The notes under the pieces were generated by a model. It saw only the letters and a program-made list of their open reading frames with translations. It did no database searches and was not told where the DNA came from. Both the position numbers and the translations under genes were made by a program. Positions 15,001 to 52,406 of a stretch of DNA of 54,605 nt are shown here, one piece after another. This DNA is from a bacterium (GTDB lineage: Bacteria; Patescibacteriota; UBA1384; CAILIB01): positions 1 to 54,605 of the forward strand of contig JBAXRQ010000003.1 in NCBI GenBank assembly GCA_037131105.1, given 5' to 3'. The stretch's first letter is position 1, and each line of letters starts with the position of its first letter.

Positions 15001-15575
15001 CCTTCATTCTGTAAAGCCGCATGGTAAGAATCTACTACCTGATTGAATTCAGGGGATCCGCGACTCGCCTTATTGGCAATGAGCCACTGTGCGTACTGCA
15101 TCGAGGGGGATGTCGTAGGAGCTTGAGCGGGTTCTGCTTGTGCAGAACTGATACCCGTAAGACGCCCAACAACATCGGAAGCATAACTTCCTATGCTCTT
15201 ACCAGTAATATCTTGTAAATGGGATTGAATATTCCCGTTACGGTCAAGGGCACGGGGGCCACCGAAATAGACAGCCGCTACCTTTGGGGGATCCTGATAT
15301 CTATTCCAGAGATCTTCAATGAGGCTAACGCCAGCTTCAGTACTATGCTGGGGGTTGTTCCATTCATACTCTTTAGGAATCAACCCCTGATTTTTTAGCC
15401 CATTAAACGTAGGCTCGATAACCTGCATCGGGCCAAGGGCACCCGCCTTATTAGGTTTTGAAGTATCCGCAGCGCCGTAACTTGATTCTTGTCCAAATAT
15501 AGATCTAGCGACATTAGCAGCAGCAGGATCCGTACCCCGACGCGCTAGGATATCTTCAAATTCGTTCCTATTCAT
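9066..15575 (-). CDS. Large polyvalent ejection protein: N-terminal lytic transglycosylase, central zincin-like HExxxH domain, C-terminal LPD38-like region
   Basis: 2169 aa; QESS and GALGPMQV (SLT); TLFHEALGHFGL with EEVLA; C-terminal WTRNIRLP...IPTGFGLG; last gene of the virion operon. Confidence 0.75.
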   Translation of the reverse strand: MNRNEFEDILARRGTDPAAANVARSIFGQESSYGAADTSKPNKAGALGPMQVIEPTFNGLKNQGLIPKEYEWNNPQHSTEAGVSLIEDLWNRYQDPPKVAAVYFGGPRALDRNGNIQSHLQDITGKSIGSYASDVVGRLTGISSAQAEPAQAPTTSPSMQYAQWLIANKASRGSPEFNQVVDSYHAALQNEGLTQYLPQQQQQEPTEYAGFTGAFKSAMPNVAASIAAGRYAASGTTENAKALVDASASKYKQMELGDIGGISDFLEYGKELAGGALGFMAAPTAAAFGTELATRNPVAAGYAATGIIGSQLATQDLARQAQQHLAAQEKGQAYEPSVARAAIATAAQLALFEGALSKFPFVSKLLGHEGEEVAAKTGAQLKDALDNKTLTYANGLMEGIGKGVKFQVPVMMGQQALERWQAGMPLLDADARKEYMNAAASGAAMGVGFGGYEGFKNTATDRGMANQYQKEQDLIKDLTAKETAKAAAVPAAPTAGKPVASVVEAPPGVITPSDVRVAGAPAPVVAEGETPPVVPPLKIEDILSKWNEVPAPVAAEVPAVAPAVAPVVAKVAPKKAEPKKAEPLVLTSEDKARVLEAFRTIKDPTLKKIAATGIDPKIVNLAKNALLDEKLLSKDGPFKWVVTPAEGVKVDEQVAATKPNAPAVGESVAGSVPTAIAKGRAADETVTGGVGVPSANVGELPAGEKALNPALKAKVTKLEEDHKTAEAFKNAGIDESESEATVQEGVSLGRIVNDLRESAVGIYTKKLISKEDYNLIRAALSKSIPDIAFVESKLTHALEQQELKHKLVVSESTAAKKIGDAKVATEIKANVAHAKELGEKVKVKVKKRREIAKEEPSTPDEEALAAAAAIDARKKELEAIPDEDEVVRELPLLQRGEVTNTGVKTEEAKKAVDEATSGWTNKPKIKVVDSVKDLPHEVRSDVHHDAKGVYDPNTHTIHIIAGNAKDASGIKATLFHEALGHFGLSKKFRDKLDSVLEDILKHNSGVKVAVEEWKKRFPDSYTHLTGHERDIRAVEEVLAGRSETGPIKHVGLRGALNKIIAVIRDFGRQMGLVKDWTDNDVTNLLHQAHETVIHGGEAENIRGGIRMQRTEKAAPAEDRTPEELLKSIGKGRQQYEDRPSLVEKLKNFVKSGHKNYEEIIRLTQNERRPLKVLEDYLARSNLIRRGDGDFNNAYEILSQAAGESDRKLQVLNPHLDKLNKSIVDIAKRDEITPVEVLKRLQAYSIAMHEGERRLIKFLKNVPLNNKIHLNVGGIKMTPAQYREEIFKALHQNIDLVKGGETKQMRKILEDLVDKYKVADGWSRMNPTGTMKGEVLSIDSPIYDVAGSFSKAELQTLRKMKDAAFAGANGADLKNIFDAVKDIQKETIRLDSEANYWSTPVNNITDFYGYEHYMPFKGRPGSMVSKEDQELELGDKHTSGEFSQYAEEAGGRKSDSDNPVLQTMADAGKAAGRAGNSGYTEAIKNLITQKHLAGKLVEKIPFEDRYNGVTKKDIQGKNNIFHYMPDGSIEVYKISNEKMANAVRGYAGQNIFQSINKFTGFIGKGHTRLNVAFSPYNLTRHLMTTAWTIGGDLSPKESARFLAYATNEIAARNGVAKALKAAVLYSKNDFKTLESLANAGDPAYRNLKEFIEIGGRTSYIRSLGSNSHIEDLIKQVGKSGVATKVDHVHKWFDLWADGFDLAGRAATYGFMKDKVLSRLEKEGRDIKSPEVLKEAQIEAAAYAKNMFNFEQVGKYGREIGSWVMFFRPTITTAVRALDVLLPAFRSGESMLAHAPDTIKGKNEDGTYINQKAVDAFLADHKMRQTNARTMMLAMAGLGMTAYGAAYMMSPLDEEGRNRVGTDDMAMWTRNIRLPLGEIGEKLGVPYLVIPTGFGLGAFIALGAQVGGLLAGNNSIGKIVGNMIPIAMDSYLPLPVAKFNPMDNPIAWIAESAAPSFARPFIEYGMNIDSFGRQVHSSHQNAWGDAYVSSEHIPDFYSNVTRFMANATTGDVTMSPDTLHFFLNAYLDGQSRIIHNSWDLGMVLTGMKDFDIKRDTFVLDSFIGKYSSVDNREFAEIEKGIKKTEAILNMFKGTDKYDDYIDAHPNAEMVVNMYNKNVNGGIKNIRGQMNKIRANTEYSPKERKEALDDLGYNLHALERSFIDAYQDYQKD

Positions 15576-17476
15576 TCCTCACCAGAAATAGCTTGGTTAG
15601 CCTCGGAATAGATAGAAGAACTATCAAGCGCACCCTTAGATCTAATACCTGATATCTCAGCCTGTAGTTCTTTATTAGCCATAGCTTGACTAAGCATAGA
15701 GTTATCTAGGTTATCTAACTGAGCTTTAAAAGTCGCCCTATCTTTAGGGCTAGTATTAGGATCATTTACTTTAGTAAAAAGCCTATTCCTTTGCATTGGG
15801 TACATGGGATTATTTTTAGTAATAGCAGCATAAATGGACCTATGTACATCGGCTTCAATTTTCTGCTTCAACAGTTCCATTCTTTGATTATCTAACACGC
15901 CCCGTCTAACCCCCGTCCGATCCCGCATAGCATTCGTATCAATACTATTTTGGCGATTAACCATATCAGTTAGGATGCCACGCTTTAAACTATCAGCAAT
16001 CCGAGCTTCTTGCGTAGCCGTCTGACTATCACCCTTCTTGAGAGCAATCTGCTCATTGATAAGCGCCTGACGCATCATGCTGCCCTTAGCAGACATGTCC
16101 ATATATGCAGCCATACCAGTACGTTCAGTCTCAAGTGAACCCAGAGTACCTGCACTGATAGCCTGAATACCTGTGGTACCGCCCGGAGCCGCACCCATAT
16201 TTGCCCAGAAGCTACGCTCCTTGTTTCCTGCAAGGCTTCTACGGTAGTCATTAACCTGCTGCTCATAATCAGTCTGCGCTTTATTAGACTGCTCAAGAAG
16301 AGCTGGGATACCCATTGCCTTATCTCGTCCAGCTTGCGCAGTCATATTGCTAGCGTAATCTCCACCAGTCCCTGAGTCCTCCAATTCTTTTTTAAGCATC
16401 GTCATTATGGAATCTTGAGCCGGGACATAATCCCGCTGAATTACAGGCGCATTGGAAATGGGGGCGGGAGCGGCTGGAGGAACAATAGTTGGCTTGGGGG
16501 GAGCGGGCGGGGGAGTTCTGGCAGTCTCACCGCTATGTCGCATAGTATCTAACATGCCCCCCGGACCACCGACTCCCATCGTGCCATAACGATGCAACGT
16601 GCCGAGCGCACGGATACTAGCGTCTTTCCAGAACCCGTGTTCTCTTGTATCCGTTTCAGATGGCGAGTAGTACTTGTAAAAGTCTTCAGTTGGGATGTTC
16701 TGGTACGACGCATCGCCTGTGACCTGTCCAGCGACAGCATGTACAATATCAGAAGCTCCCATTGCGGCAGCGGCGGGGATAATGCCCGCTCTCATAATTC
16801 CGGGGGCTAGTCCTCTAATTCCTGACATAGCTCTAATTCCTGACATAGAAGGAAGTATATTAGTCCTACCTATTTTTCCAGCCCCTAAAGCTTCATGCAT
16901 TGCAGCGCGCCAACCCGCTGCTTTAGAAGCCGCTGCTGGCGGGGCTACTGCTTCTAAAGCAGCGGCTTCGCCAGCAGCGGCTTCGCCAGCAGCGGCTTCG
17001 CCAGCAGCGGCTTCGCCAGCCGGGGCTTCGTCATAGCTAAGGTCGAACTCGGTCTGGTAAGGTTCTCCACCTCCAGCAAACGCGACGATACCCCCGCCTC
17101 TCAACTGGAAGTCAGCAGGGAGACTCGCAAGCCCCTGCGACTGTTCAGGCATCTGAGGAATATCATAAGGACCGCCATAAGCATCTATCCCCGGCTGTCC
17201 ATGTAACCCCTTCTGACTATGCAGTCCCATAGAGGATAGCTTGGGATTCCCCTGCCCCTGTGGCTGCTGTCCCTGCTGCTGCATAGCCAGCATAGAATTA
17301 CGATAATGAGAAATCTGTTCCTGCAGCGCGGGAATATCACCCGGTCGAACCTTACCCATCTGGATAGCATTAGCAATAGATTGCTTCTGTAACTCAGGAG
17401 GCTCATTCCCAATAATCTGGGCCATGTTCAGCATTCCTAGATCGAGAATGCTCGGGTTATATGACGAAGTAGCCAT
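15572..17476 (-). CDS. Internal virion/ejection protein
   Basis: 634 aa, Ala/Gly/Gln-rich with helical C-terminus; contains LRGGGIVAFAGGG; lies between the pilot-like gene and the giant gene. Confidence 0.6.
   Translation of the reverse strand: MATSSYNPSILDLGMLNMAQIIGNEPPELQKQSIANAIQMGKVRPGDIPALQEQISHYRNSMLAMQQQGQQPQGQGNPKLSSMGLHSQKGLHGQPGIDAYGGPYDIPQMPEQSQGLASLPADFQLRGGGIVAFAGGGEPYQTEFDLSYDEAPAGEAAAGEAAAGEAAAGEAAALEAVAPPAAASKAAGWRAAMHEALGAGKIGRTNILPSMSGIRAMSGIRGLAPGIMRAGIIPAAAAMGASDIVHAVAGQVTGDASYQNIPTEDFYKYYSPSETDTREHGFWKDASIRALGTLHRYGTMGVGGPGGMLDTMRHSGETARTPPPAPPKPTIVPPAAPAPISNAPVIQRDYVPAQDSIMTMLKKELEDSGTGGDYASNMTAQAGRDKAMGIPALLEQSNKAQTDYEQQVNDYRRSLAGNKERSFWANMGAAPGGTTGIQAISAGTLGSLETERTGMAAYMDMSAKGSMMRQALINEQIALKKGDSQTATQEARIADSLKRGILTDMVNRQNSIDTNAMRDRTGVRRGVLDNQRMELLKQKIEADVHRSIYAAITKNNPMYPMQRNRLFTKVNDPNTSPKDRATFKAQLDNLDNSMLSQAMANKELQAEISGIRSKGALDSSSIYSEANQAISGEE
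16958..17032. repeat. 15-bp tandem repeat, 4 perfect copies plus 1 degenerate (GEAAA repeats)
   Basis: agcagcggcttcgcc at 16958, 16973, 16988, 17003; degenerate copy at 17018. Confidence 0.95.
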
Positions 17477-17485
17477 GATAATTCC

Positions 17486-18364: not shown

Positions 18365-18366
18365 AG

Positions 18367-18831
18367 CTATTCTCCGAAATAATAAAAACTGCCCGCTAGT
18401 TTCATGCCGAGTCTTTCCATCATCTTATTTTTTCGTTCCGTATCATCCATATTGAAGATACCAAGAACTACTGGATGCTGAGATTCTCTGGAAAAAGCTT
18501 TAACTTCGTTAATGAACGCCCTAGCTAATCTGTATTCCCTATTTTCGGGTAATACATAAAACCATAAATCACCATATCTATGCTCATGTGAGTACCACGG
18601 GGAATTTAATAGCAGTCCTAAAGACCCAATAATTATCCCATTCTCATCTTCTGCGACCCAAGCTGCGGTATCAATAGACGCAATAATTGACCGTAGAGCT
18701 TTTTCCCGATCAAAATTCGCGGTAATTTCCGACCCCATCTTATGTTCTTTAGAAAAGTGGTTCGCAAGTAACTCAAAGATCTGGGATAGATCATTAGGAT
18801 TTTTCTCTGCCCTGCGAACTACATATTTCAT
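18367..18831 (-). CDS. GNAT-family acyltransferase of the virion module
   Basis: WVAEDENGIIIGSLGL, DLWFYVLPENR..RLA (acyl-CoA-binding motif A-like), MERLGMK. Confidence 0.8.
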   Translation of the reverse strand: MKYVVRRAEKNPNDLSQIFELLANHFSKEHKMGSEITANFDREKALRSIIASIDTAAWVAEDENGIIIGSLGLLLNSPWYSHEHRYGDLWFYVLPENREYRLARAFINEVKAFSRESQHPVVLGIFNMDDTERKNKMMERLGMKLAGSFYYFGE

Positions 18832-21518
18832 CTAGGAAGATACTTGTCGGGATTAATCTGCTTACCCTGCTTATTATTACCAGTACGTGCCTTACGAATC
18901 TTACTCATCATCGCATAGAGCTTCTTGGCACCAGCATTTGTAGATCCATTACCCAGATGGGAAACAACATCTGCAGGGACTACGAACTCACCGTCAGCCA
19001 ATGCAGCGCGTTGTGGATTCTTGCCATTAATTACAGCAGGAATAGAATCAGACATGCCATCGCCGCCGCCATGCAGAAGATTCCCACCAGCCGCGTAAGT
19101 ATTGTTAGTAAGGGGGGATAAGCCTCCCTGCATATAATGACGGGCCTGAATATCATGGGTAGAGCCACCCTGTGCGCCGTTAACGGACCCCCCGCTATCT
19201 CCCAAACCGGGAGCTAATGTAAAGTTAAGTGATGATGTGGGGTCAGGTGCGCCCATACCCCCACCAGTACCGCCGTACATACCCTGATAGCCACTAAAAC
19301 CATTACCGGGGTTACTGAAATCAGTAGCAATCGAATGACCACCGCCGCCATAACTTGCTGGATTGACTGCATTCGGTAAGGGAGGGACAGCCTTTGGGGA
19401 AAATAGAGCGTTGCCCGCAGAAGCTAACCCCTGACCTAATTTTAATATCCCATAAGCTTGCCCACCGGGAACAAAAGTAGACGCGAGGGATTTACCTACA
19501 GTACCCCAACTAGGTATGAGCGCACTACCCGCCGCTCCCCAATTAGGGCCGCTAGATCCCCCCGACGCTCCACCCCGTGCGAAATGACGGGCCTGAATAT
19601 CATGGGTAGAGCCACCCTGTGCGGCGACCATACCTTGATCCATCTTAAAAGTACCCATGCCGCCATTAGGCCCGCTAGCATCGGGGCCAAACATTCCCCC
19701 ATTCCAGCCACCGAATGCAGTATCGACACCACGGCTACTAAAATCAGGTGCGCCCATACCGCCACCCATACCGCCTAAACCTTGATAGCCACTGAAGCCA
19801 TCACCGGGGACAAAATCATTATTCATCCCACCCTGATTTGCTTGGGCAAAAGCTGCGGCATCTCTATTTTGTGCAGCAAGTTCTTGAGCTTGATTTGTAG
19901 CGTCAAGCTTTGCTTGTTCCGCTGGGGTTAGTGTGTCTTGGCCGCTCAGTATCTTCCCTACATCCTTAAGAGTAGATGGAAGTTTTGATGACATAAGCAA
20001 CGAGGGGCCAAAAGGAAATGCCCCAGCTAATGCCGCTAATCCAAGAGTGCCCGGTGAAGGAGTAATAGCATTTCTCAACTTACCCAACATACCGGGGTTC
20101 TTCTTCAGATTAAACTGAGAATAATCTGGAGTTGTAGGAGTCGTAGGAGTCGTAGGAGTCGTAGGAGTCGTATTAGGTGGGGGAGTCGTCGTAGGATTCA
20201 CTACAACTGGGCCGGTATATCCAGCACCGCCATAACCAGCACCATGCGTACCGCCGCCCGCACCGCCGCCAGTATTTACAGGAGGAACAGTCATATGAAA
20301 GGTAGCAGGGGCTTGCTTACTTAACTCGTTAAGATAGTTACCCTCTGCGGTTTTGAAATTATTAGTTACCTGCCCAGTAGCGGGATCATAACTAATACCC
20401 TCCCCTGTATTCATTTGTTGGGGAGTCACCGGGGTGTTAAACATGCTGTCGTAGTAGTCATACATTGACTGACTAGGCGACGGGGGAGAAGAAGGGGGAG
20501 CCGCATCGGGGATACGGCTCGGCTGATTGACCGGAGGCCCCATCGTAGGATAACGAGCAGCAACAGTCGTCGCGCCACCATCAGCCATCTTACGAACTTC
20601 ACCACCCGCTTTCGCACTAGGGGTATACGTCGCAGGAGAGCCATCTGGATTAATAGCAACGTCGCTAGGGAACGTATAAGACTTGCTGAGCGTACCCGGC
20701 GTATACCCCTGACCGATAAAGTAAGGCTGACCCGGCTGACCAAACTTGGGGTTGACCTTACCCGGATGGTAATGCCCACCGCTGATATAGCGGGTCTGGT
20801 TCTTCGGACCCTGCTGCGTACCTGCAGCCAATAACGCAGGGATAGCAGGAGCAAGGAGCTTAATACGATCCAAGCCACCCATCTTGCTATAGATATTAGC
20901 TAGCCCACTTTCACCACTAGCGGGCTTATAGTTAAACCCAGCTTTCATATTTTCAGAAGTTAGAGGAGCATTAAGCTTTTGAAGTTCTGCAGGAGAAAGA
21001 GTTTCGGCCTGATTACTTAGATCACGATAAGTAGCAGTGGGGGCAATATTCTGCAGTGAAGCTGTAGGATCAGCTTCTGTGGGAAGAAACTGAGCAGTGG
21101 GGTGGATATCTTGCAAAGAAGAAGTTACTCCTACGGGTGTACTAGCTGCAGAGCCAATATTAGCTGCTTGCTGCATCCCCGCTTGCGCTCCCTGCGCCCC
21201 CAGATAGCCAGCAAGACCCCCCATCGGGCCACCTTTTATCGCGCCCATAATACCCGACACCTGCGGTGCCATCTCCCCTATTCCAGCCATACCCATACCC
21301 CCTTGGATAAGCATAGGCATGAACGCGGACATGAGTGAGTCCATCCAGCTAGCTTCTGGGAGACCCGTATGGGGGTTAATGGTAGGTGTATTACCCGTCG
21401 CAAGAGCGAGTCTATGCAGTCCAGATACCTCGTTAGGCGTCATATGGACAAGCATGGAGTCGCCGTTTCGTCCGAATGAGGCGAGACCAGCAGCAGCATT
21501 GTGAATGGTTTTGCTCAT
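18828..21518 (-). CDS. Internal virion protein with multiple xxGG modules
   Basis: 896 aa; N-terminal GRNGDSMLVH...TINPHTGLPE; C-terminal GDGMSDSIPA...ALADGEFVVPADVV; Gly/Pro-rich middle. Confidence 0.65.
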   Translation of the reverse strand: MSKTIHNAAAGLASFGRNGDSMLVHMTPNEVSGLHRLALATGNTPTINPHTGLPEASWMDSLMSAFMPMLIQGGMGMAGIGEMAPQVSGIMGAIKGGPMGGLAGYLGAQGAQAGMQQAANIGSAASTPVGVTSSLQDIHPTAQFLPTEADPTASLQNIAPTATYRDLSNQAETLSPAELQKLNAPLTSENMKAGFNYKPASGESGLANIYSKMGGLDRIKLLAPAIPALLAAGTQQGPKNQTRYISGGHYHPGKVNPKFGQPGQPYFIGQGYTPGTLSKSYTFPSDVAINPDGSPATYTPSAKAGGEVRKMADGGATTVAARYPTMGPPVNQPSRIPDAAPPSSPPSPSQSMYDYYDSMFNTPVTPQQMNTGEGISYDPATGQVTNNFKTAEGNYLNELSKQAPATFHMTVPPVNTGGGAGGGTHGAGYGGAGYTGPVVVNPTTTPPPNTTPTTPTTPTTPTTPDYSQFNLKKNPGMLGKLRNAITPSPGTLGLAALAGAFPFGPSLLMSSKLPSTLKDVGKILSGQDTLTPAEQAKLDATNQAQELAAQNRDAAAFAQANQGGMNNDFVPGDGFSGYQGLGGMGGGMGAPDFSSRGVDTAFGGWNGGMFGPDASGPNGGMGTFKMDQGMVAAQGGSTHDIQARHFARGGASGGSSGPNWGAAGSALIPSWGTVGKSLASTFVPGGQAYGILKLGQGLASAGNALFSPKAVPPLPNAVNPASYGGGGHSIATDFSNPGNGFSGYQGMYGGTGGGMGAPDPTSSLNFTLAPGLGDSGGSVNGAQGGSTHDIQARHYMQGGLSPLTNNTYAAGGNLLHGGGDGMSDSIPAVINGKNPQRAALADGEFVVPADVVSHLGNGSTNAGAKKLYAMMSKIRKARTGNNKQGKQINPDKYLPR
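19136..19623. repeat. 41-bp exact direct repeat (AQGGSTHDIQARH) within a duplicated module
   Basis: aatgacgggcctgaatatcatgggtagagccaccctgtgcg at 19136-19176 and 19583-19623; a second 17-bp repeat at 19243 and 19744. Confidence 0.95.
20134..20172. repeat. 9-bp tandem repeat, about 4 copies (TTP repeats)
   Basis: gtaggagtc repeated from 20134. Confidence 0.9.
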
Positions 21519-21557
21519 ATAAATCTCGCCAAGTCAAGGTTATAGAATAGTAGCATT

Positions 21558-36616: not shown

Positions 36617-37336
36617 CTATCTCAGGAACGACTCACGGGGGACAAAGCGAATAGCCGCTTTTTCACGGTCTTCATCTGAAGCCCACTGCCAATCTTCATC
36701 GTACATCGCTTTGAGAACCGCTGTACGGGAGTCAGCACCGGGGATCTTAAGAGACAAAAGATAAGCTAGCCCAGAGATCATCGGGGTAAGGAACCTGAAT
36801 GGAATATCTTGCCCATTGATACCATCGCCCGCGTCCTGCATACGCTTCAGCCGCGTATAGACAAACGTGTAAGTTGTACTATTATCAGGTAACGGCCAAA
36901 CATTAATAGTCGGATAGACGACCGCGCCTACCGAATTCGTAGCCCCAGAAAGACGATTGATCCAAACTTGAATCGGACGCCCTGTAGCGTTCTTATTAGG
37001 GATGGAAAGATACGTCGAGCTAGAGATCCGAGTGATATTAATATCAATCTGGGTCGTACCTGTACCCGTCCGGATTACATGGTCGAGAAGATCAATCGTA
37101 TTTACTGGGAGAGTATAGGTTCCAACGTTATACGTTAGAAGCTGGGATCCAGTATCGAGCGTCCAGAGATTAATGCCCTTGTTGGCCCAATCAGCAAGTA
37201 GAAGATTCAGACTACGTTTAGCAGTCCGAAAGTCATAGCCGCTACGGAGTTCTGCACCGCATCGTTCAAAAGCTTCTTCAAGGATCTCATTAAGATCTGG
37301 ATTGAATGAAGTAGTACCTGAAAGTTGGGCTGTCAT
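36617..37336 (-). CDS. Second head-tail connector/adaptor-like protein
   Basis: LNEILEEAFERCG..LRSGYDFRTAKRSLNLL..DWANKGINLW; TAATG-coupled start at 37336. Confidence 0.68.
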   Translation of the reverse strand: MTAQLSGTTSFNPDLNEILEEAFERCGAELRSGYDFRTAKRSLNLLLADWANKGINLWTLDTGSQLLTYNVGTYTLPVNTIDLLDHVIRTGTGTTQIDINITRISSSTYLSIPNKNATGRPIQVWINRLSGATNSVGAVVYPTINVWPLPDNSTTYTFVYTRLKRMQDAGDGINGQDIPFRFLTPMISGLAYLLSLKIPGADSRTAVLKAMYDEDWQWASDEDREKAAIRFVPRESFLR

Positions 37337-37677
37337 TAGCAGTTCCACGCCCTTAAGGACTTATTGATCCGGCTATCCGGATCACCAGCCGTTTTCTTGC
37401 TCGTTAGTTTACGCTTCATGCCCTTCATACGGGCGCAAAACGAATTCCGGCGAGACCCACCTTCTGGCTGTGGAGCCTTAAGATGCGCTCCGTGGGCCTT
37501 GTTATAAGAAGTCCTACCCTTGGCGTTCAACCCGCCTTTGGGGTTCTGGCCTTCCTTGCGCGTCCACGCGGTGCCGCCCTCTGAGTATAACTTCACGGGA
37601 ACATCAGAATCCTTTCTCTCGATGAGTCTAGGTTTCTTGGAAGGCGAAATAGCCCCCATGCCCCGTGAGGGTCTCAT
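37336..37677 (-). CDS. Small basic conserved phage protein
   Basis: MRPSRGMGAI..., GGLNAKGR, RRNSFCARM, SRINKSLRAWNC. Confidence 0.65.
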   Translation of the reverse strand: MRPSRGMGAISPSKKPRLIERKDSDVPVKLYSEGGTAWTRKEGQNPKGGLNAKGRTSYNKAHGAHLKAPQPEGGSRRNSFCARMKGMKRKLTSKKTAGDPDSRINKSLRAWNC

Positions 37678-37895
37678 TAGACAAACTTCCCGCGAGTCTT
37701 ACCCTTGGATTCACAGCCGCTACCCCGGACGGAGCCACCTGAAGCGAACTTCTTGCGTTCCCGCCACTCCTTACCCGCTCCAGTAGGAGCAGACGGGACA
37801 GTCCCCTTGGGGGGCGTATCCTGATCACTCATAGGATTAGGCTTAGGATCCGGCTTAGCGGGTCCCCCGTCTGCCATCTTCTTACAGCGGGCCAT
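37677..37895 (-). CDS. Small basic xxGG-motif protein
   Basis: MADGG, FASGG and C-terminal RGSGCESKGKTRG; coupled on both sides. Confidence 0.6.
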   Translation of the reverse strand: MARCKKMADGGPAKPDPKPNPMSDQDTPPKGTVPSAPTGAGKEWRERKKFASGGSVRGSGCESKGKTRGKFV

Positions 37896-38518
37896 TAGCA
37901 GACCCGCCCCTTGGTCTTACCCTTGGACGCGCAGCCATCGCCGCGACTAGTCGAGCCGCCCTTAGCCATCTTGACCATCCGGGTCAGCGTACGTCCCTTA
38001 GCCTCGACTCCACTGCCAATACGCTTATCGCTGCTTTTATTGTCAGACAGCGGGATATTAGAGACTTGCTTACCCTTAGCAATCCTACCGCCCTTTTTCA
38101 TACCGGGCATAGGAGGCGCACCAGCAGGGGGGCCTGACGGCATACCCATGCTAGGGCCGGGGCCGGGAGGGCCAGCCTGTGCCATAAGAGCAGCAAGACC
38201 CGCAGGATTAATCCGGGGCTTCTTCACGCCACCACCGCGCTTATAGCCCTTCGGCTCGCCCTTTTCCTCGTCAGCTTCAGCCGACTCTTCCTTGACCATG
38301 CTCTTGGGAGCGCCATGCGACTTCATCCAAGCAGCGTGTTTCTTTTCCATCGCAGGACTAGCGTTCTTCATGATCCCTCCGGATCCAAATTTGTGGCCCT
38401 TGTCGGCCTTGTTAAAATCTTTCCCAACTGATTGGGAAATGCCGACCTTCTTGGCGAAGCCCGGATTGTGGGCTACTGCCGCCATCATACGGGCCTGTTT
38501 GGCTGACTTACTGGGCAT
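37895..38518 (-). CDS. Basic Lys/Gly-rich xxGG-motif protein
   Basis: MPSKSAKQARMMAAVAHNP; FGSGG, YKRGG, MKKGG, MAKGG; C-terminal RGDGCASKGKTKG. Confidence 0.65.
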   Translation of the reverse strand: MPSKSAKQARMMAAVAHNPGFAKKVGISQSVGKDFNKADKGHKFGSGGIMKNASPAMEKKHAAWMKSHGAPKSMVKEESAEADEEKGEPKGYKRGGGVKKPRINPAGLAALMAQAGPPGPGPSMGMPSGPPAGAPPMPGMKKGGRIAKGKQVSNIPLSDNKSSDKRIGSGVEAKGRTLTRMVKMAKGGSTSRGDGCASKGKTKGRVC

Positions 38519-43465: not shown

Positions 43466-43471
43466 GTATCA

Positions 43472-44383: not shown

Positions 44384-44398
44384 TTAATTACTCCTCAA

Positions 44399-45337: not shown

Positions 45338-45353
45338 TGTAGACTCCTAAAAA

Positions 45354-46710: not shown

Positions 46711-46720
46711 ATTTATTTCC

Positions 46721-47291: not shown

Positions 47292-50032
47292 TCAGCCTCT
47301 CCAGCCGGGGGCGGCTGCTGCGCAGCCTGTTCCGTTTGCGACTCACGGGCCTTAGCCTGTTCATCGAGGTTCGTATGGTGCTTATGCAAGTCAACCTGAT
47401 GTTTCGTATGTTGCTGCGAAATATCAACGCCTGTCTTGATCGAAGCGAGCTTGTGCTGTTGCTCGGCTAGATTATGTGTATCGGCCTTACTAGCGATGTC
47501 GATAGCCTGATCGTGCTGGGTATTCTGCATATCAGCCATAGTCTTGATAATCTCATGCCTATGCTGATCCTTCTGGTGATTCTGCTGATCAGCCTTAGAT
47601 GCACTGTCAACAATGAACTGACGCTTGCGATGCTCAATCTCAGCACCCAACTTCACGCTATCAAGCTGAGAAGTTATCTTCAGTTCTTCTTTCTTTAGCT
47701 CAAGTTCTGCTGACCGGAATGCAGCGTTAGCCTGATCCAGTGCATTCTTACGCTGCTGCTCGGCAGAAGATATCTGCCCCTCCAACTGCAGCGAGGCTTG
47801 CTTGATCTGGATCTCCTGCTGCTTAAGCTGAAGCTCCTGCTGCTGCATCTGTACAATCGGATCCTGCATCTTCTGCTGGGCTTGCTGTGCAGCGGCTTCC
47901 TGCTTATCTTTCTGCAAAAGCTGGCTGGCAGCTTGCGCAATGATCGGAGACAGCTTGGCCTCAAGCTCCGGGGGGATATACCCAGAGTCATTATCATAGT
48001 CAGGCGGGGCAGGAAGCTGCAGAGGCATCAGCTTCTGTACTTCAGCACGGTACTGGAACGCGACATGCTCCATGATATGGGCCATCGCGGAGGACTGAAT
48101 TGCTTGGGCCTGTGGGTTCTGCCCCATGATCTGCATCAGCTTGGGATCCTGAATAGCCCCCATATGCACCGTTAGATGTGCCTGATGATCCTGATACATG
48201 AATGCCCTGACCGGCGTACCATTCAAGATCGCCATGTTCTCAGACACGGGATCAACTGGTTTCATGTCGTCCTTATTGGGAATAATCTTCTCGACGTTCT
48301 TGACGCCCAGTGTTTCGATCATTTGCCTGTGAAGAAACGGCAGATTATAGATCTGAGGTGCTGTCTGAGATAGCTGAAGAACTGCCTGATACTGCACCAC
48401 ACGCTGTGCCATTGTGGAGGCATTGGGGTCAGATACAGGCAGGACATCACAATGATCGTAGTCGCTACGCTTCGCGCCAGCGTCCCCAGTCTCAGGTTCA
48501 TAATCATAGGACTCCGGGGCATTATCCCTGATAATCGCGGCGAGGAGCTTAAACTCCTGCTTCATCGTATAGTGAATGCGGGCCTGAATGGCCCCCATTA
48601 CCTTGAGAGTGCGCTCAAGTACCGCGAGTGTCGTACCCACCGGGGCCTGAGATGACATGTCCGAGACGTTTAGATCACCCGCTCCCGCGAATCTACGACC
48701 GTCCTCGACTACCTGATTCATCAAGGCCATCAAGACCTGACTCGGCTCCTTATAAGGGAGGGGCAGGATGTTGTCCCGCATAGTCCCGCTGGGAAGATCT
48801 ACGTCTCGGAATTCGCCCGGTGCGATAGGAGTGTCATCACCCTTGATGCGAAGGCCTTTAGTCTTGAGACCCCCCGGTAGATTGCTGAGCGTACCCGCAT
48901 CGATAAGCTGCCGCATGAGCGACGTTGCTGATCTAGTGTGGCCGCCAATGAGGTGAATGAGACCAAAATAGTAGAATCCGAAACCCGGTATGTAACCGTA
49001 GTGGACAAAGTGTTGGCGGCGCAGTTTGAGCTTGTCTTCTTCAAGCCAATTGCGTCGGATGGCAAGGACTGTTGAGGTACCTTTTTCAATGGTGACAATG
49101 TACGGGAGTTCGATCCCCGTCGCTTCCCCGTGCTTGTCTTCATCTTCGTACCCCTTCAGGTCAAGATTACAATGAATCTCGTAGATCTGATAACGGTCGT
49201 CCATCGTAGCTGAGAAGCCCTGCTGCTCAGCTTTCTTCTTCTCTACTTCATCCAATACGCGAAGTGGATCACCAAGATCTACATCACTATAGAATCCTGC
49301 TGCCTGAAGCTTGCGCAACTCGTTTTTAGTCTTGCGCATCTTGTGCGTGACACGTTCAGCAGACTCGATATTGGTAGCACCGTAAGGTACGACTACATCT
49401 TCTGCCGAGATAAACGGGGCCGTCTGACGATTCAGGCTAGGGTCAAAGTAAATCTTCTTGAAGGCGTTACCCGCCAATGCTACCGAGATCAATAGACGCT
49501 CATGCTCTGGACGATACTCCTGCATGATCTCCGTCAATTCAAAGTTCATATCTGCTTCGACACGCTTGGCAGCGTCTATCTTGTCCTGCGTTTCCTTACC
49601 AATAATGACTGTACGGACTGGTCCCGCAGCGGGGAATGTCTCCATAATAGTCTCAGATTGGAACTTGACTGCAGCTTCCATCAATAGTGGATGGTATACG
49701 CCACAAGCACCGGGCCAAGGCTCGCTACGCTCTTCATACTTCAAACCAAGAAGCTGAAGCCCCTTGACGTAGGTATCCAGCCAATCCTTACGGGAATTCA
49801 TATCCTCCTGTACGTCAGTCATAAGCTCAGACGCCAACGAGGTCAACTCACCATCGTCAATATCGTCCGCGAGGTTCGCGTCAAAGTCAGGAGTCGAAGG
49901 CTCAATATGAACCTTAAAGCCAGAACCCTCGATATCTACCGACTCCGGATCCTCAATATGAACCTCAATAGGCTCTTCGTTGCCAGCACTGATCCCCTGT
50001 GGGGCAGAATAAATACTCTTATCAATGCTCAT
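47288..50032 (-). CDS. Portal protein (P22-like) with long C-terminal helical extension
   Basis: PWPGACGVYHP, FPAAGPV, GNAFKKIY, YIPGFGFYYFGLIHL, DAGTLSNLPGG, PVSDPN. Confidence 0.9.
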   Translation of the reverse strand: MSIDKSIYSAPQGISAGNEEPIEVHIEDPESVDIEGSGFKVHIEPSTPDFDANLADDIDDGELTSLASELMTDVQEDMNSRKDWLDTYVKGLQLLGLKYEERSEPWPGACGVYHPLLMEAAVKFQSETIMETFPAAGPVRTVIIGKETQDKIDAAKRVEADMNFELTEIMQEYRPEHERLLISVALAGNAFKKIYFDPSLNRQTAPFISAEDVVVPYGATNIESAERVTHKMRKTKNELRKLQAAGFYSDVDLGDPLRVLDEVEKKKAEQQGFSATMDDRYQIYEIHCNLDLKGYEDEDKHGEATGIELPYIVTIEKGTSTVLAIRRNWLEEDKLKLRRQHFVHYGYIPGFGFYYFGLIHLIGGHTRSATSLMRQLIDAGTLSNLPGGLKTKGLRIKGDDTPIAPGEFRDVDLPSGTMRDNILPLPYKEPSQVLMALMNQVVEDGRRFAGAGDLNVSDMSSQAPVGTTLAVLERTLKVMGAIQARIHYTMKQEFKLLAAIIRDNAPESYDYEPETGDAGAKRSDYDHCDVLPVSDPNASTMAQRVVQYQAVLQLSQTAPQIYNLPFLHRQMIETLGVKNVEKIIPNKDDMKPVDPVSENMAILNGTPVRAFMYQDHQAHLTVHMGAIQDPKLMQIMGQNPQAQAIQSSAMAHIMEHVAFQYRAEVQKLMPLQLPAPPDYDNDSGYIPPELEAKLSPIIAQAASQLLQKDKQEAAAQQAQQKMQDPIVQMQQQELQLKQQEIQIKQASLQLEGQISSAEQQRKNALDQANAAFRSAELELKKEELKITSQLDSVKLGAEIEHRKRQFIVDSASKADQQNHQKDQHRHEIIKTMADMQNTQHDQAIDIASKADTHNLAEQQHKLASIKTGVDISQQHTKHQVDLHKHHTNLDEQAKARESQTEQAAQQPPPAGEAE

Positions 50033-50292
50033 CAACGTCTCCTAGTCGCCCGGTTTGTGCGGGGATCGTAAGTCATGTTCTGTTCAGGTATGCTGGTCTT
50101 CTTGGAGGCGCGGTCTTTCGCACGTTCTTCGGCGGTCATGTTATCTCGGGCCTTGCCCGTTGCAGTCAGTACGCCTTCAGTAGTCATCTGCCCACGCTTA
50201 ATTAGAATACTTCTGGCCGTATCCTCAGACCCCACCTGCGCAGCGAGGCGATTGAGTAGCTGATTACGACCCATGAACTTCTGGGTAGTCAT
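50032..50292 (-). CDS. Small basic protein upstream of the portal gene
   Basis: 86 aa, LLNRLAAQVG...LIKRG...MTAEERAKDRA. Confidence 0.65.
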   Translation of the reverse strand: MTTQKFMGRNQLLNRLAAQVGSEDTARSILIKRGQMTTEGVLTATGKARDNMTAEERAKDRASKKTSIPEQNMTYDPRTNRATRRR

Positions 50293-50321
50293 TAGTAATA
50301 CCCCGCCTTATTGGCACTCAT
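50292..50321 (-). other. Coupling mini-ORF MSANKAGYY
   Basis: ATG overlaps the upstream TGA; TAA overlaps the downstream ATG; repeated at 51529-51558. Confidence 0.5.
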
Positions 50322-51529
50322 AGAATTTTCCTGTAATACGTCGTACGCTCGATAGCTCCACCATGCTTATATTCCCTATAATCAGGCTCGGGGTCAGGGA
50401 AATCGAGTTCTGTTCCTCTCGGGGGCAAGGGTCTATCCGGACCCTTGTAGATCCCATACTCGTCTGCGAGTCCGAGTTTCTGCCGGGCATTGGCCTTATG
50501 CGCGTTTTCTATCCAAGGCTGATAACTGGATTCTTGTAATCCGCTAGGCGAATGTCTACTCTTGAGCCCGTTCGTCCACACTATTTCACCATCACGCATG
50601 GATGCGCGATTGCCAGTGAACGGATCCACGTACTCGCCACCGGACTTCAGCTTGCTTTCCACGGTTTCCAGATGTGGAAACTGATCAGCAATCCAAGATT
50701 CTCGTGTGGGAAGCCAGCCTTGTTTCAGATACTCCGCGACATGTTCTTCATCACCGTGGACGTTAGCATTGTATTTTTGGTTGATTTCTTTATGCGTAGG
50801 ATACGGCTCGACACGGCTGTGCAAGTCGTCCAATAGCTCGGCATGTGCCTTGTTGTATGCTGCATCCCTGTGGGTGTGCCAAGACTCCGCCGTCATACCG
50901 TCGTACATATCATTCGCTGTTCTATCAGCTACATGATTGGCGTGGACATTTGCCTGCCCTCGCATGGCATGGTAGTCATGGGGTGACACCACGCGAGTCG
51001 TCGCCGTCTCCGCTACTTCAGGAGCCGCATGCTCCGCAGCCTTGCCGAGTCCGCGCAGCAGCAGCGGTGTCGCGACTGCCGTCCCGACCGCCGCCTGTCC
51101 CGCATTCTTCATGAACTGACGGCGACCGGCCTGCATGGGCACGGACTCAATGACTCGCCGCATGGCAGACGCTCCCAGCGAGCGAGCCAGCGAGCGAGCC
51201 AGCCCTCCGATCCCGGCTGCTTCTCCCACGGGCAGGAAAGCCGTGTCGATAATCCCCCGATCACGGCCCGGTGCGAAGTTGAGCGTACCCTGATAGAACG
51301 GCGACGATCCCTGTGCCCATTGATGGATTTCTTCCGGGGATTGACCAACAAGAAGACTACCAACAGGTAACTGGGTATTGGGTACCAGCGCACTTGCTAC
51401 GCTTTCACCGGCATTATCAAGATAGCGGCGCAGCGTCCCCAGACCCTGCGAGGCGGTACGCAGCATGGGGTTCTCTGGAATGGGGCGTATGGCCCCATTG
51501 TCCGTGTAGGCATATTTATCGTACGGCAT
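50318..51529 (-). CDS. Hypothetical cassette protein with internal Tat-like motif and terminal YKHGG
   Basis: 403 aa; GRRQFMK followed by a hydrophobic stretch; His-rich middle; no family recognised. Confidence 0.7.
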   Translation of the reverse strand: MPYDKYAYTDNGAIRPIPENPMLRTASQGLGTLRRYLDNAGESVASALVPNTQLPVGSLLVGQSPEEIHQWAQGSSPFYQGTLNFAPGRDRGIIDTAFLPVGEAAGIGGLARSLARSLGASAMRRVIESVPMQAGRRQFMKNAGQAAVGTAVATPLLLRGLGKAAEHAAPEVAETATTRVVSPHDYHAMRGQANVHANHVADRTANDMYDGMTAESWHTHRDAAYNKAHAELLDDLHSRVEPYPTHKEINQKYNANVHGDEEHVAEYLKQGWLPTRESWIADQFPHLETVESKLKSGGEYVDPFTGNRASMRDGEIVWTNGLKSRHSPSGLQESSYQPWIENAHKANARQKLGLADEYGIYKGPDRPLPPRGTELDFPDPEPDYREYKHGGAIERTTYYRKIL

Positions 51530-51603
51530 CAGTAGTACCCCGCCTTATTGGCACTCATATAAGAACGATCATAGAATTTTCCTATCGCGAGTACATATGG
51601 CAT
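51529..51603 (-). other. 24-aa coupling mini-ORF MPYVLAIGKFYDRSYMSANKAGYY
   Basis: TGATG overlaps at both ends; 75 nt in frame. Confidence 0.5.
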
Positions 51604-52406
51604 CAGATCACCCGCACCCTGCCGCCCTTGCAGTAGTTCTCTGGAAGTGTGATGGCTTTCTTGGCGGATATATCCCCGCCAACGAAGTTCAGGAAGGGGT
51701 ATTGGTTACGCTGCTCAACCATTGTCTTCGGTATCTTGCCAACGCTAGTTTCTACCGTGTTGCCAGTCAGGTAATCCATCGGATGGGCCATATACCCCTG
51801 AGATTCGCCGCTATTGACGGCGGCGTGGGTGTCGACAGCGTACATCGTCAGGTTAGGATATGCCTCGGGAGAATTGAAGATCCTGCTATCCAAAGCGGAC
51901 ATCACCTTCTTCTCCTTGTCCCCCACTGATATCTTCTCACCCCTATCGCCATATAATCCTTCATAGAGCGATTGCAGGTTATTGGAGTACTGGGCGCGTG
52001 AGTTGGAGTGGATCAAGTCCTGTATCCGATTCGCCATTTCATCATTGATCTTGTCGTGGCGGTACTCATGGGCCATCGTCTGCGGACTGGCCCCGTTACC
52101 GATGCCATAGACCGTTTTCTTCGGATCTCCCAGCGCATTGTAGGATGCAGAGTTGATCTGCCCGAGTCCCATCGCCATTCGCTGGGCGAAATCCTCCCGA
52201 TTTTCAGGGCGCACCCTATGGGCGTTGATCCCCAAGAGATTGTAGGAATGCCCCGGATTCAGGAACACCGCCTTATTGGGGTCCACCAGATCACGGTACG
52301 GCGTCCCGATCTTGGCCCTGATCTTGGCTGCTAGCTCGGGATCTTTCGCATTGAGCGGATCCGCGTAGCTATCCAACTGCTTGCGCTGGCGTTCTCCGGT
52401 ATCCAT
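51603..52406 (-). CDS. Hypothetical cassette protein with HExxH zincin motif and terminal YCKGG
   Basis: 267 aa; TMAHEYRH...E at 52056-52070. Confidence 0.7.
   Translation of the reverse strand: MDTGERQRKQLDSYADPLNAKDPELAAKIRAKIGTPYRDLVDPNKAVFLNPGHSYNLLGINAHRVRPENREDFAQRMAMGLGQINSASYNALGDPKKTVYGIGNGASPQTMAHEYRHDKINDEMANRIQDLIHSNSRAQYSNNLQSLYEGLYGDRGEKISVGDKEKKVMSALDSRIFNSPEAYPNLTMYAVDTHAAVNSGESQGYMAHPMDYLTGNTVETSVGKIPKTMVEQRNQYPFLNFVGGDISAKKAITLPENYCKGGRVRVI

What the first reader, a model, noticed from the sequence alone, without database searches (positions are those of the whole stretch)
15572..52406. Shared [MFY]-x-x-G-G motif across internal, basic and cassette proteins: candidate cleavage or packaging tag
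Seen, about 15 copies in 7-8 ORFs: FAGGG and LRGGG (634 aa); MADGG, FARGG, YMQGG, YAAGG, AQGG x2 (896 aa); YSEGG (113 aa); MADGG, FASGG (72 aa); FGSGG, YKRGG, MKKGG, MAKGG (207 aa); YKHGG (403 aa); YCKGG (267 aa). I did not see this pattern in the capsid, portal or terminase. In the two cassettes it sits 5-12 residues from the C-terminus. Established: T4 internal proteins use a shared capsid-targeting/cleavage signal; adenovirus protease cuts (M/I/L)xGG; from memory, lambda tape measure gpH has FATGG...GEFV...YATGG. Inference: a common tag that recruits otherwise unrelated cargo into the head or marks maturation cuts, allowing payload to be swapped freely. No canonical prohead protease gene is visible.
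Basis: partly seen in the sequence, partly recalled or inferred. Interest (0 to 1): 0.75.

Follow-up and report, generated by a model that had tools for sequence, protein, structure and literature searches.

The report
Portable Gly-Gly peptide tags on phage proteins
A short glycine-glycine peptide recurs in a water-dwelling phage's presumed internal proteins and forms the conserved extreme C-terminal tail of swappable accessory proteins encoded beside the portal gene, which looks like a transferable address label, though what it binds and whether it is cut remain untested.

Summary
The listed motif copies are all in the sequence. Within this one genome the excess is modest (31 copies against 16 expected) and sits mainly in three proteins.

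Comparison with relatives makes the motif convincing. In the 207-aa basic-protein family, 80% of GG sites have M/F/Y three residues upstream. The motif before the GDGMSD module of the 896-aa family is nearly invariant. Unalignable positional counterparts of the 634-aa protein keep tandem [FY]xxGGxV[AD] 8-mers at the same place.

The strongest result concerns the two cassette proteins. Their tails (..GGxIExTTHxRKxx and ..YRxGGRVRMI) occur in public viral contigs only as extreme C-termini: 16 of 16 and 49 of 49 in-frame matches. They sit on unrelated bodies (HExxH, SLT transglycosylase, ParB-like and unknown folds), differ by synonymous codon changes, and swap between homologous bodies. They lie in two insertion hot spots beside portal-vertex genes. 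Structure prediction puts the motif segments in disordered regions.

My best reading is a portable docking peptide for virion or portal-vertex incorporation, at confidence 0.45. Cleavage marking remains possible, by analogy with T5 and lambda tape-measure processing. M/F/Y is not obligatory, the adenovirus protease consensus does not fit, and homology to lambda gpH is not significant.

The parts
50321..50371 (-). Type-1 C-terminal tail of the 403-aa cassette protein: YKHGGAIERTTYYRKIL-COOH
   Evidence: The same tail is found on unrelated bodies, always at the extreme C-terminus (16/16). AF2 pLDDT is below 50 for residues 383-403.
51606..51641 (-). Type-2 C-terminal tail of the 267-aa HExxH cassette protein: ENYCKGGRVRVI-COOH
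   Evidence: In IMG/VR, 49 of 49 in-frame pattern matches are followed directly by a stop codon, on several unrelated bodies. Homologues P0242 and P0243 keep the tail.
50318..52406 (-). Two accessory cassette genes (267 aa with an HEYRH motif; 403 aa) inserted between the large terminase and the portal gene
   Evidence: In 34 of 50 related loci the terminase-portal gap is 15 bp or less, usually 10-12 bp. Cassettes are present in only a minority of loci and their bodies differ. The 403-aa family is always encoded next to the portal.
37895..38518 (-). 207-aa lysine-rich protein: a 43-aa N-domain, then FGSGG, YKRGG and MKKGG, then MAKGG followed by ...RGDGCASKGKTKGRVC
   Evidence: 2195 homologues, each with 2-7 copies. 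79.5% of GG sites have M/F/Y at -3, against a 12.9% background.
37677..37895 (-). 72-aa basic protein with MADGG and the C-terminal module FASGGSVRGSGCESKGKTRGKFV
   Evidence: 2 copies against 0.1 expected. The same C-terminal module occurs in syntenic small proteins of L087, L097, L118, L119 and L134.
37336..37677 (-). 113-aa basic protein: N-module MRPSRGMGAI..., then YSEGG, then DUF6321
   Evidence: Pfam DUF6321, E = 4.3e-22. In L087 the same N-module followed by YKEGG is fused to a different C-domain, so the motif sits at a module junction.
18828..21518 (-). 896-aa Gly-rich presumed internal/ejection protein with 7 motif copies. The last copy (YAAGG, nt 19083-19097) opens the conserved C-terminal module YAAGGNLLHGGGDGMSDSIPAV..GEFVVPADVV.
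   Evidence: 689 homologues. The motif before GDGMSD has M/F/Y at -3 in nearly all of the 120 retrieved homologues (a few have R, A, N or P). The motif region is predicted disordered. The gene lies in a block with an SLT-bearing 2169-aa protein and a 'DNA ejection protein' homologue.
17066..17137 (-). 634-aa protein segment QGLASLPADFQ-LRGGGIVA-FAGGG: tandem 8-residue units
   Evidence: The positional counterparts in L093 (580 aa) and L094 (545 aa) show no BLAST similarity, yet they keep 2-4 tandem [FY]xxGGxV[AD] units at the same relative place.
52472..52501 (-). Large terminase FRQGGFVRLP, at the start of its 30-residue C-terminal tail (a lead only)
   Evidence: RFRQGGF[IV] is invariant in 80 related terminases, and the motif persists as ..RMGGFIGLP in a terminase 56% identical over the part held in L118. 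It is the top non-self hit of the type-2 tail matrix in the whole window proteome, at only 7.5 bits.

Best explanation
The [MFY]xxGG pattern is the visible core of a set of related short linear peptides. A better description is [K/M/F/Y]-[A/K]-x-G-G-x-[I/V/L], lying in disordered segments. This clade of aquatic podophages (HTVC023P/027P-like) uses these peptides as docking elements.

On the accessory cassette proteins the peptide forms a portable extreme C-terminal tail. I infer that the tail attaches late-expressed, otherwise unrelated proteins (HExxH, SLT transglycosylase, ParB-like and unknown folds) to the assembling particle, most likely at or near the portal vertex. The proteins would then travel in the virion and enter the next host along with the ejection proteins. 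The Gly-rich internal proteins (896 aa, 634 aa) and the cluster of small lysine-rich proteins carry the same core in several copies, which would allow multivalent binding to a symmetric partner.

Shown here: the peptides are conserved, disordered, restricted to the C-terminus on cassettes, transferable between bodies, and encoded beside portal-vertex genes.

Inferred only: binding, the identity of the partner, encapsidation and ejection.
For: Position. Tails are always at the very C-terminus: type 2 in 49 of 49 in-frame matches, and type 1 in 16 of 16 (always two residues before the stop). A chance match would be followed by a stop about 5% of the time.

Diversity of bodies. Tails sit on unrelated bodies (BLAST clusters). 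One body is a Pfam SLT transglycosylase (E = 2e-9), a domain typical of virion-internal proteins and also present at the N-terminus of the window's 2169-aa protein.

Swapping. The HExxH body carries tail type 2 in the window, P0242 and P0243, and type 1 in L030 and L148-L157. The 403-aa family carries type 1, type 2 or an acidic ..PF tail.

Selection on the protein. Tail codons differ at synonymous sites.

Location. Cassettes lie only in two hot spots inside the structural module: terminase|cassette|portal and adaptor|cassette|125-aa gene.

Shared module. GG-h-x-S-h-P-x-x-[YF]-x-x-GG links the type-2 tail (GGSVTMPNNYRAGGRVRMI), the 896-aa family (GGIASLPEYAAGGKLL) and the 634-aa protein (GLASLPADFQLRGGGIV).

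Disorder. Motif segments have pLDDT below 50, next to confident domains, as expected of peptides that fold on binding.

Distribution. Copies occur in late genes only, with 0 of 14 GG sites in replication genes. The roughly 2000-aa neighbouring proteins have 0-1 copies, while the 545-641-aa neighbours have 3-6.

Lead. The terminase has a similar peptide at the start of its C-terminal tail. In other phages that tail is the portal-docking element; this last point rests on my own knowledge and was not tested.
Against: There is no virion proteomics, structure or interaction data for this phage group. No PDB relatives were found and no relevant papers.

The motif is heterogeneous, so lumping the classes may be wrong. 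Type-1 tails often have K at -3, and their conserved part lies after the GG (IENTTHDRK).

Some homologues of the 403-aa protein instead end in ..D-x-PF, which resembles the SSB tail. That would fit host-protein binding rather than packaging.

The N-terminal 43-aa domain of the 207-aa protein and DUF6321 also occur in jumbo phages and cyanomyophages without the motif, and not obviously as virion proteins.

Gene adjacency to the portal and adaptor genes is weak evidence for physical contact. The terminase match scores only 7.5 bits.
Confidence: 0.45

Rival explanations
1. The motif marks processing sites. The peptide is where these proteins are cut during assembly or ejection, by an unidentified host or phage protease or by self-cleavage. 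Cutting would release modules of the small basic proteins and trim the internal proteins, as happens in siphophage tape-measure proteins.
For: T5 pb2 is cut after R1127 (PMC10038345). In the sequence this is ...NSFVPR|AEGGMMYPGVSYQMGEHGTEVV, two residues before a GG and just upstream of a GE.V element.

Lambda gpH is cut in its Gly-rich region about 14 kDa from the C-terminus. The site and the protease are unknown (PMC12617516). FATGG (735-739) ...HRGEFVF...YATGG lies there.

In the small proteins the motif sits at junctions between shuffled modules. The 43-aa N-domain exists alone in phiKZ and N1M2, ending where the motif would begin.
Against: No protease gene was detected. The HExxH cassette is absent from most relatives, so it cannot be the general enzyme.

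The 5-12 residues after the GG in cassette tails are strongly conserved right to the last residue, which is odd for a piece that would be discarded.

The spacing does not fit the adenovirus protease consensus. The T5 cut is after Arg and not after GG.

Similarity of the 896-aa C-terminus to gpH is not significant.
Confidence: 0.2
2. Several unrelated functions have been lumped together by a loose pattern. On this reading the repeats in the lysine-rich proteins and Gly-rich internal proteins are structural: beta-hairpin or solenoid units, hinges, or DNA-condensing basic repeats. The cassette tails would then be a separate element that only happens to contain GG.
For: The conserved context differs between classes: K-M-A-x-GG-x-V...ADGIAxKGKTKG in the 207-aa family, 8-residue tandem units in the 634-aa counterparts, and GGxIENTTHDRK in type-1 tails.

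M/F/Y is not needed in type-1 tails.

The small proteins are strongly basic, with net charges of +26, +9 and +19. That fits charge neutralisation of packed DNA.
Against: The double-GG module links the type-2 tails to the 896-aa and 634-aa proteins. KKASGGSI of type-1 tails resembles KMASGGSV of the basic proteins. All classes are confined to the same late gene block of the same phage clade.

AF2 predicts no ordered structure for the motif segments of the two proteins modelled, the 896-aa C-terminal region and the 403-aa tail.
Confidence: 0.2
3. The cassette tails are host-directed C-terminal signals. They might be a protease or unfoldase recognition tag (basic residues followed by hydrophobic ones, as in RRKKAI-type tags), or a peptide that binds a host hub protein. 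They would control the stability or targeting of accessory proteins in the infected cell and would have nothing to do with the virion.
For: Some homologues of the 403-aa protein end in ..DDFPF..DDIPF or ..DYIPF, which resemble the SSB tip DDDIPF. Types 1 and 2 end in basic-then-hydrophobic residues (DRKIL, RVRMI). Tails are strictly C-terminal.
Against: The genes lie in late structural operons beside the portal and adaptor genes. The same core recurs internally, in multiple copies, in the presumed ejection proteins. One tagged body is an SLT transglycosylase, which is of little use in the cytoplasm.
Confidence: 0.1
4. The pattern is a chance or compositional artefact of Gly-rich proteins, or a DNA-level constraint such as recombination junctions or ribosome-binding sites of the next gene.
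For: Without three proteins the within-window excess is not significant (17 vs 13). The last codons of some type-1 tails (AGG AAA AT. CTA TGA) overlap a Shine-Dalgarno-like AGGA and the start codon of the next gene.
Against: The motif is conserved across thousands of homologues with variable flanks. Tail codons vary at synonymous sites. The tails are kept where no downstream gene overlaps them (window 403 aa and 267 aa; L007). The tails occur at two different genomic sites.
Confidence: 0.03

Closest known systems
T4 capsid targeting sequence of internal proteins (IPI-III, Alt)
   Same: A short peptide shared by otherwise unrelated proteins that directs them into the head so that they are injected with the DNA. 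The payload can be exchanged.
   Different: The T4 signal is N-terminal, about 10 residues long, and is removed by the prohead protease at LxE/IxE. Here the tag is C-terminal or internal, is centred on GG, and no prohead protease is detectable. Encapsidation is not shown here.
Encapsulin cargo-loading peptides
   Same: A short, disordered, Gly-containing peptide at the extreme C-terminus of diverse cargo proteins that docks on the inside of an HK97-fold shell. It is portable between cargos.
   Different: The consensus is different (GSLxIGSLKG-type). Encapsulins are bacterial nanocompartments and not virions. The partner here is unknown and may be the portal rather than the shell.
Lambda gpH and T5 pb2 tape-measure C-terminal region (gpH*/gpHC, pb2*/pb2C processing)
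   Same: These are Gly-rich, disordered regions of ejected proteins with [FY]AxGG followed by a ..GE.V.. element, lying where the protein is cut during assembly. The 896-aa protein has YAAGG...ADGEFVVP.
   Different: Similarity is at the level of a pattern only (HMM E = 0.78). The T5 cut is after Arg. The lambda site is unmapped. Those proteins are tail tape measures of siphophages, not podophage internal proteins.
MuF / SPP1 gp7-type minor head proteins with polymorphic C-terminal toxins, and the P1 Dar packaged antirestriction proteins
   Same: Accessory effector proteins are encoded next to the portal gene and delivered through the capsid. The design is modular, with a constant incorporation part and a variable payload.
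   Different: In those systems the constant part is a folded N-terminal domain (MuF) or a set of dedicated partner proteins. Here it is a C-terminal peptide of 10-20 residues. No MuF domain was detected.
T7 gp6.7 and gp7.3 (small basic virion proteins ejected at infection)
   Same: Small, basic, Gly-containing proteins encoded among head-tail genes.
   Different: T7 gp7.3 has no [MFY]xxGG copy, and no homology was found.

Membership tests
T4-type capsid targeting sequence | N-terminal position of the signal | tested here: not met
   Tails are at the extreme C-terminus. The other copies are internal.
T4-type capsid targeting sequence | Removal by a prohead protease encoded in the head module | tested here: not met
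   No protease family hit in PHROGs or Pfam for the head-module proteins. The capsid protein matches only the capsid part of protease-capsid fusion families.
T4-type capsid targeting sequence | The tagged proteins are found inside the capsid | not testable with these tools
   This needs virion proteomics. No such data were found.
Adenovirus protease (adenain) cleavage sites | Consensus (M/I/L)-X-G-G|X or (M/I/L)-X-G-X|G, with one residue between the hydrophobic residue and the first Gly | tested here: not met
   Here two residues separate M/F/Y from GG. The consensus itself is taken from my own knowledge.
Adenovirus protease (adenain) cleavage sites | A papain-like or CE-clan cysteine protease encoded by the virus | tested here: not met
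   None detected among the proteins scanned. Not every small ORF was scanned against Pfam.
Encapsulin-type C-terminal cargo-loading peptide | A short peptide at the extreme C-terminus, shared by unrelated cargo proteins | tested here: met
   49/49 and 16/16 matches are at the C-terminus, on several unrelated bodies.
Encapsulin-type C-terminal cargo-loading peptide | The peptide binds the inner face of the HK97-fold shell | not testable with these tools
   No complex prediction or experiment was available.
Lambda-family tape-measure C-terminal module | The pattern [FY]AxGG ... GE[FY]V ... [FY]AxGG is present in gpH as recalled | tested here: met
   gpH 735 FATGG, 755 GEFV, 778 YATGG.
Lambda-family tape-measure C-terminal module | Statistically supported homology of the 896-aa C-terminus to gpH | tested here: not met
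   Family HMM against gpH gives E = 0.78. BLAST gives E = 0.13-0.17.
Pfam DUF6321 | Match above the gathering score | tested here: met
   113-aa protein residues 44-111: 79 bits against a cut-off of 28.5. The motif YSEGG lies just upstream of the domain, outside it.
RTX / beta-roll calcium-binding repeats | Tandem nonapeptides GGxGxDxUx | tested here: not met
   Tandem units here have period 8 and lack the Asp ([FY]xxGGxV[AD]).
GlyGly-CTERM sorting signal | GG followed by a transmembrane helix and a basic cluster at the C-terminus | tested here: not met
   The tails have only 5-12 mostly polar or basic residues after the GG.
SSB C-terminal tip mimic | Acidic residues followed by a terminal I/L-P-F | tested here: not met
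   This occurs only in some distant homologues of the 403-aa protein (for example ..DDFPF..DYIPF). It does not occur in the window.

The most novel reading that the evidence does not exclude
A widespread clade of aquatic podophages uses a 10-20-residue C-terminal 'address label' built on a Gly-Gly core to load arbitrary effector proteins at the portal vertex for injection. The same core would serve as the portal-docking element of the terminase tail. It would also be the long-unmapped processing region of siphophage tape-measure proteins (lambda gpH, T5 pb2). That would make it one ancient peptide code for entering and leaving the portal/tail channel.
Probability: 0.2. Interest if true: 0.85.

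Novelty: new variant of a known kind. Interest (0 to 1): 0.66.

Why it matters
If the tails are incorporation tags, they give a simple, transferable rule for which accessory proteins a large group of environmental podophages carries into the next host. That group includes relatives of the abundant HTVC023P-type pelagiphages.

Injected effectors could then be read directly from metagenomes: any gene ending in one of these tails in the two hot spots would be a candidate. The tails would also offer a small tag for loading foreign proteins into phage particles in laboratory strains.

The apparent link to the Gly-rich region of lambda gpH and to the mapped T5 pb2 cut points to a concrete place to look for the gpH cleavage site. 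A 2025 structural paper still lists that site as unknown (PMC12617516).

If the tails instead bind host factors, they would still define a new family of modular phage accessory proteins.

Tried and rejected
- Nucleotide search of the structural region against GenBank phages found no match.
- Sequence searches of the 207-aa, 896-aa, portal, 319-aa and 267-aa proteins against PDB chains found nothing useful.
- Foldseek of the 403-aa model against PDB and BFVD gave no match with E <= 0.001.
- The AF2 model of the 896-aa C-terminal region has only two confident helices, so I did not search with it.
- The search for related loci with the 403-aa and 267-aa proteins as single queries found nothing, because it needs close relatives. 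The homologue search for the 267-aa protein gave only 3 relatives.
- Literature searches for DUF6321, Pag-Yong1 and HTVC023P proteomics returned nothing usable.
- Homology of the 896-aa N- and C-modules to lambda gpH or to other window proteins was not significant.
- T7 gp7.3 has no copy of the motif.
- I rejected the idea that the tails are conserved only as DNA (recombination junction, or RBS of the next gene). The tails show synonymous variation, persist without an overlapping downstream gene, and occur at two genomic sites.
- I rejected the idea that the HExxH cassette protein is the protease that cuts the motif, because most relatives lack that gene.
Full report
**What the window is**

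The window is most of a podophage genome. On the plus strand, at 30-9069, are the replication genes: family A DNA polymerase, exonuclease, helicase and primase. On the minus strand are the late genes:
- large terminase, 52406-53938
- portal, 47288-50035
- a GroES-like protein
- capsid protein, 43472-44383
- tail proteins
- an SU10-type adaptor, 36617-37348
- holin and endolysin
- a block of presumed internal/ejection proteins: 896 aa, a GNAT acetyltransferase, a 292-aa 'DNA ejection protein' homologue, 634 aa, and a 2169-aa protein with an N-terminal SLT transglycosylase and an LPD38 domain.

The portal is 30-44% identical to those of Pelagibacter phages HTVC027P and HTVC023P, Planktothrix phage Pag-Yong1, Roseobacter phages CRP-901/902 and Caulobacter phage RW. 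There is no close nucleotide match in GenBank phages and no solved structure for any protein tested. No prohead protease was detected.

**Check of the observation**

All listed copies exist.

Per-protein shuffles expect 16.1 copies and 31 are seen; 0 of 2000 shuffles reach that number. Given a GG, M/F/Y at -3 occurs 29 times in 169 against 16.3 expected (p = 0.0016). Without the 896-, 72- and 207-aa proteins the excess disappears (17 vs 13.0). So the window alone gives moderate, post-hoc evidence.

**Conservation in relatives is decisive**

- **207-aa protein.** It has 2195 homologues. Each of the 120 retrieved carries 2-7 copies (median 4). 79.5% of all GG sites have M/F/Y at -3, against a 12.9% background. 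The consensus is K-[MFY]-[AK]-x-G-G-x-[VM], alternating with ADGIAxKGKTKG.
- **896-aa protein.** It has 689 homologues with a conserved N-module, a variable Gly-rich middle and a conserved C-module. The motif in front of GDGMSD (YAAGG, YSDGG, MAKGG, MARGG, YAKGG and so on) is kept in nearly all 120 retrieved, with a handful of exceptions.
- **634-aa protein.** Its positional counterparts in two relatives (580 and 545 aa) are not detectably similar by BLAST. They still carry two to four tandem 8-residue units [FY]xxGGxV[AD] at the same relative place. The neighbouring proteins of about 2000 aa have 0-1 copies.
- **Syntenic small basic proteins.** In clusters of these proteins in relatives, the motif sits between shuffled modules. 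For example, MRPSRGMGAI...Y.EGG is joined to DUF6321 in the window and to another domain in L087.

**The cassette tails**

In 34 of 50 related loci that hold both genes, the terminase is followed by the portal gene after 15 bp or less, usually 10-12 bp. In a minority of loci, one or two extra genes sit there, and their bodies differ.

Almost all of these extra genes end in one of two peptides:
- type 1: x-K-x-GG-[AFSM]-IE-[NR]-TTH-x-RK-h-h
- type 2: P-x-x-Y-R-x-GG-RVR-[MI]-I

The window has both types (403 aa and 267 aa).

The tails differ at synonymous codon positions, so selection acts on the protein. They persist where no downstream gene overlaps them. This rules out a pure RBS or junction effect, although the last codons of some type-1 tails do overlap a Shine-Dalgarno-like AGGA and the next start codon.

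Pattern scans of IMG/VR gave clear results:
- Type 2: 52 matches. 49 are in frame, and all 49 are followed directly by a stop codon.
- Type 1: 16 matches. All are in frame and exactly two residues before the stop.

The bodies fall into several unrelated clusters:
- the HExxH family of the 267-aa protein
- the family of the 403-aa protein
- a 282/326-aa family
- a 201-aa SLT transglycosylase (Pfam E = 2e-9)
- proteins with a DGHHR (ParB-like) segment
- others

Tails swap between bodies. HExxH bodies carry type 2 in the window and type 1 in L030 and L148-L157. Homologues of the 403-aa protein carry type 1, type 2 or an acidic ..D-x-PF end.

A second insertion site lies between the adaptor gene and the homologue of window 36237-36614. 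It is empty in the window.

**One motif or several**

M/F/Y is not obligatory: HExxH-type bodies have KKASGG. The conserved part of type 1 lies after the GG.

Even so, the classes are linked:
- Type-2 tails in their longer form (GGSVTMPNNYRAGGRVRMI) resemble the 896-aa family's GGIASLPEYAAGGKLL and the 634-aa GLASLPADFQLRGGGIV.
- KKASGGSI resembles KMASGGSV of the basic proteins.
- One cassette ends in YNQGGIASLLKKPRR.

I therefore treat them as a family of related Gly-Gly peptides and not as one strict motif.

**Structure**

AF2 with family alignments gives confident domains for the 403-aa protein (residues 10-100 and 180-365), but pLDDT is below 50 for the tail. For the 896-aa C-terminal region only the last ~55 residues are confident (helical), and the segment holding YMQGG and YAAGG is disordered. 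This is the usual signature of short linear motifs that act by binding or by being processed. No fold relatives were found.

**Tape-measure proteins**

Neither BLAST nor a family HMM supports homology with the 896-aa protein.

The literature adds three points:
- gpH is cut in its Gly-rich region about 14 kDa from the C-terminus. The site and the enzyme are unknown.
- gpH residues ~690-817 are unresolved in the virion (PMC12617516).
- T5 pb2 is cut after R1127 (PMC10038345). In the sequence that is R|AEGGMMYPGVSYQMGEHGTEVV.

The cleavage reading therefore has an experimental analogue.

**Terminase**

RFRQGGF[IV] is invariant in 80 related terminases, and the motif persists as ..RMGGFIGLP in a terminase 56% identical over the part held in L118. 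It begins the 30-residue tail after the nuclease domain. It is the best non-self match of the type-2 tail matrix in the window proteome, though at only 7.5 bits. Terminase C-terminal tails dock on the portal in other phages; that statement rests on my own knowledge. I keep this as a lead.

**Verdict**

The best explanation (confidence 0.45) is a portable docking peptide that brings late-expressed accessory proteins, and perhaps the internal proteins, into the particle at or near the portal vertex.

The rivals are:
- processing marks (0.2)
- unrelated structural or DNA-condensing repeats lumped with a separate tail element (0.2)
- host-directed C-terminal signals (0.1)
- chance or DNA-level constraint (0.03)

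None of binding, encapsidation or cleavage could be tested with the tools at hand.

Noticed in passing
window 51050-51127 (minus strand), residues 135-160 of the 403-aa protein: An internal twin-arginine-like signal: GRRQFMKNAGQAAVGTAVATPLLL. In the family alignment the two Arg are nearly invariant within the consensus RRxFLKxAGxxAAxxAAA. This is a canonical Tat motif plus hydrophobic region, but it lies about 135 residues from the N-terminus, in a low-confidence linker between two confident domains.
   Followed up: partly
between window 36614 and 36617 (adaptor / 125-aa gene junction); L097, L118, L119, L134: A second cassette hot spot. Relatives carry a 212-380-aa gene with a type-2 tail directly after the adaptor gene. 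The window has none there. These cassettes share an Ala/Gly-rich hydrophobic segment and a charged helix before the tail, and their N-domains vary, one having a DGHHR (ParB-like) segment.
   Followed up: partly
window 38390-38518 (minus strand), residues 1-43 of the 207-aa protein: The N-terminal domain MPSKSxKQ..AVAHNP.FAKKVGI..SVGK.F occurs as a stand-alone 46-58-aa protein in jumbo phages (phiKZ orf165.1, Klebsiella phage N1M2). It also forms the N-terminus of a 264-aa 'virion structural protein' of 350-kb E. coli phages. None of these has the GG motif.
   Followed up: partly
window 37345-37548 (minus strand): DUF6321 (113-aa protein) is found in 530 phage records, mostly T4-like cyanomyophages and pelagiphages. 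In PHROGs it is the C-terminal domain of proteins of very different lengths (99-928 aa). No paper in the library mentions it.
   Followed up: partly
family of the 207-aa protein (P0001-P0120); window 37895-37903 and 37336-37344: 93 of the 120 small basic proteins have a Cys among their last three residues (..GGKC..GGYC..RVC). The window's 207-aa and 113-aa proteins end in C. Many also have ADGCA in place of ADGIA.
   Followed up: no
P0252, P0255, P0258, P0267, P0272-P0274, P0279, P0282, P0308; L089: Some homologues of the 403-aa protein end in acidic ..D-x-PF tails (DDFPF, DYIPF, DDIPF) that resemble the SSB C-terminal tip. The one example examined lies after a portal-like gene and a 326-aa gene in a different phage type.
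   Followed up: partly
L092 (phage T5 pb2), residues 1120-1150: The mapped pb2 cleavage site reads NSFVPR|AEGGMMYPGVSYQMGEHGTEVVTP. This GG...GE.V arrangement resembles lambda gpH FATGG..HRGEFVF and the window's YAAGG..ADGEFVVP.
   Followed up: partly
window 9066-15575 (minus strand): A 2169-aa protein with an N-terminal SLT transglycosylase domain and an LPD38 'polyvalent protein' domain, presumably the large ejected core protein. It has no [MFY]xxGG copy despite 14 GG dipeptides.
   Followed up: no
window 27041-27709 (minus strand): A 222-aa protein with 28.8% glycine (runs of GGGGG, GTGG). It has no family match and lies next to a tail-fibre-like 403-aa protein.
   Followed up: no
window 18367-18831 (minus strand): A GNAT-type acetyltransferase gene sits inside the block of presumed ejection-protein genes. 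Relatives have small unrelated genes at the same place.
   Followed up: no
window 50032-50292 (minus strand): An 86-aa basic protein (..MTYDPRTNRATRRR) is an optional gene just upstream of the portal. It is present alone in some relatives and together with cassettes in others.
   Followed up: no
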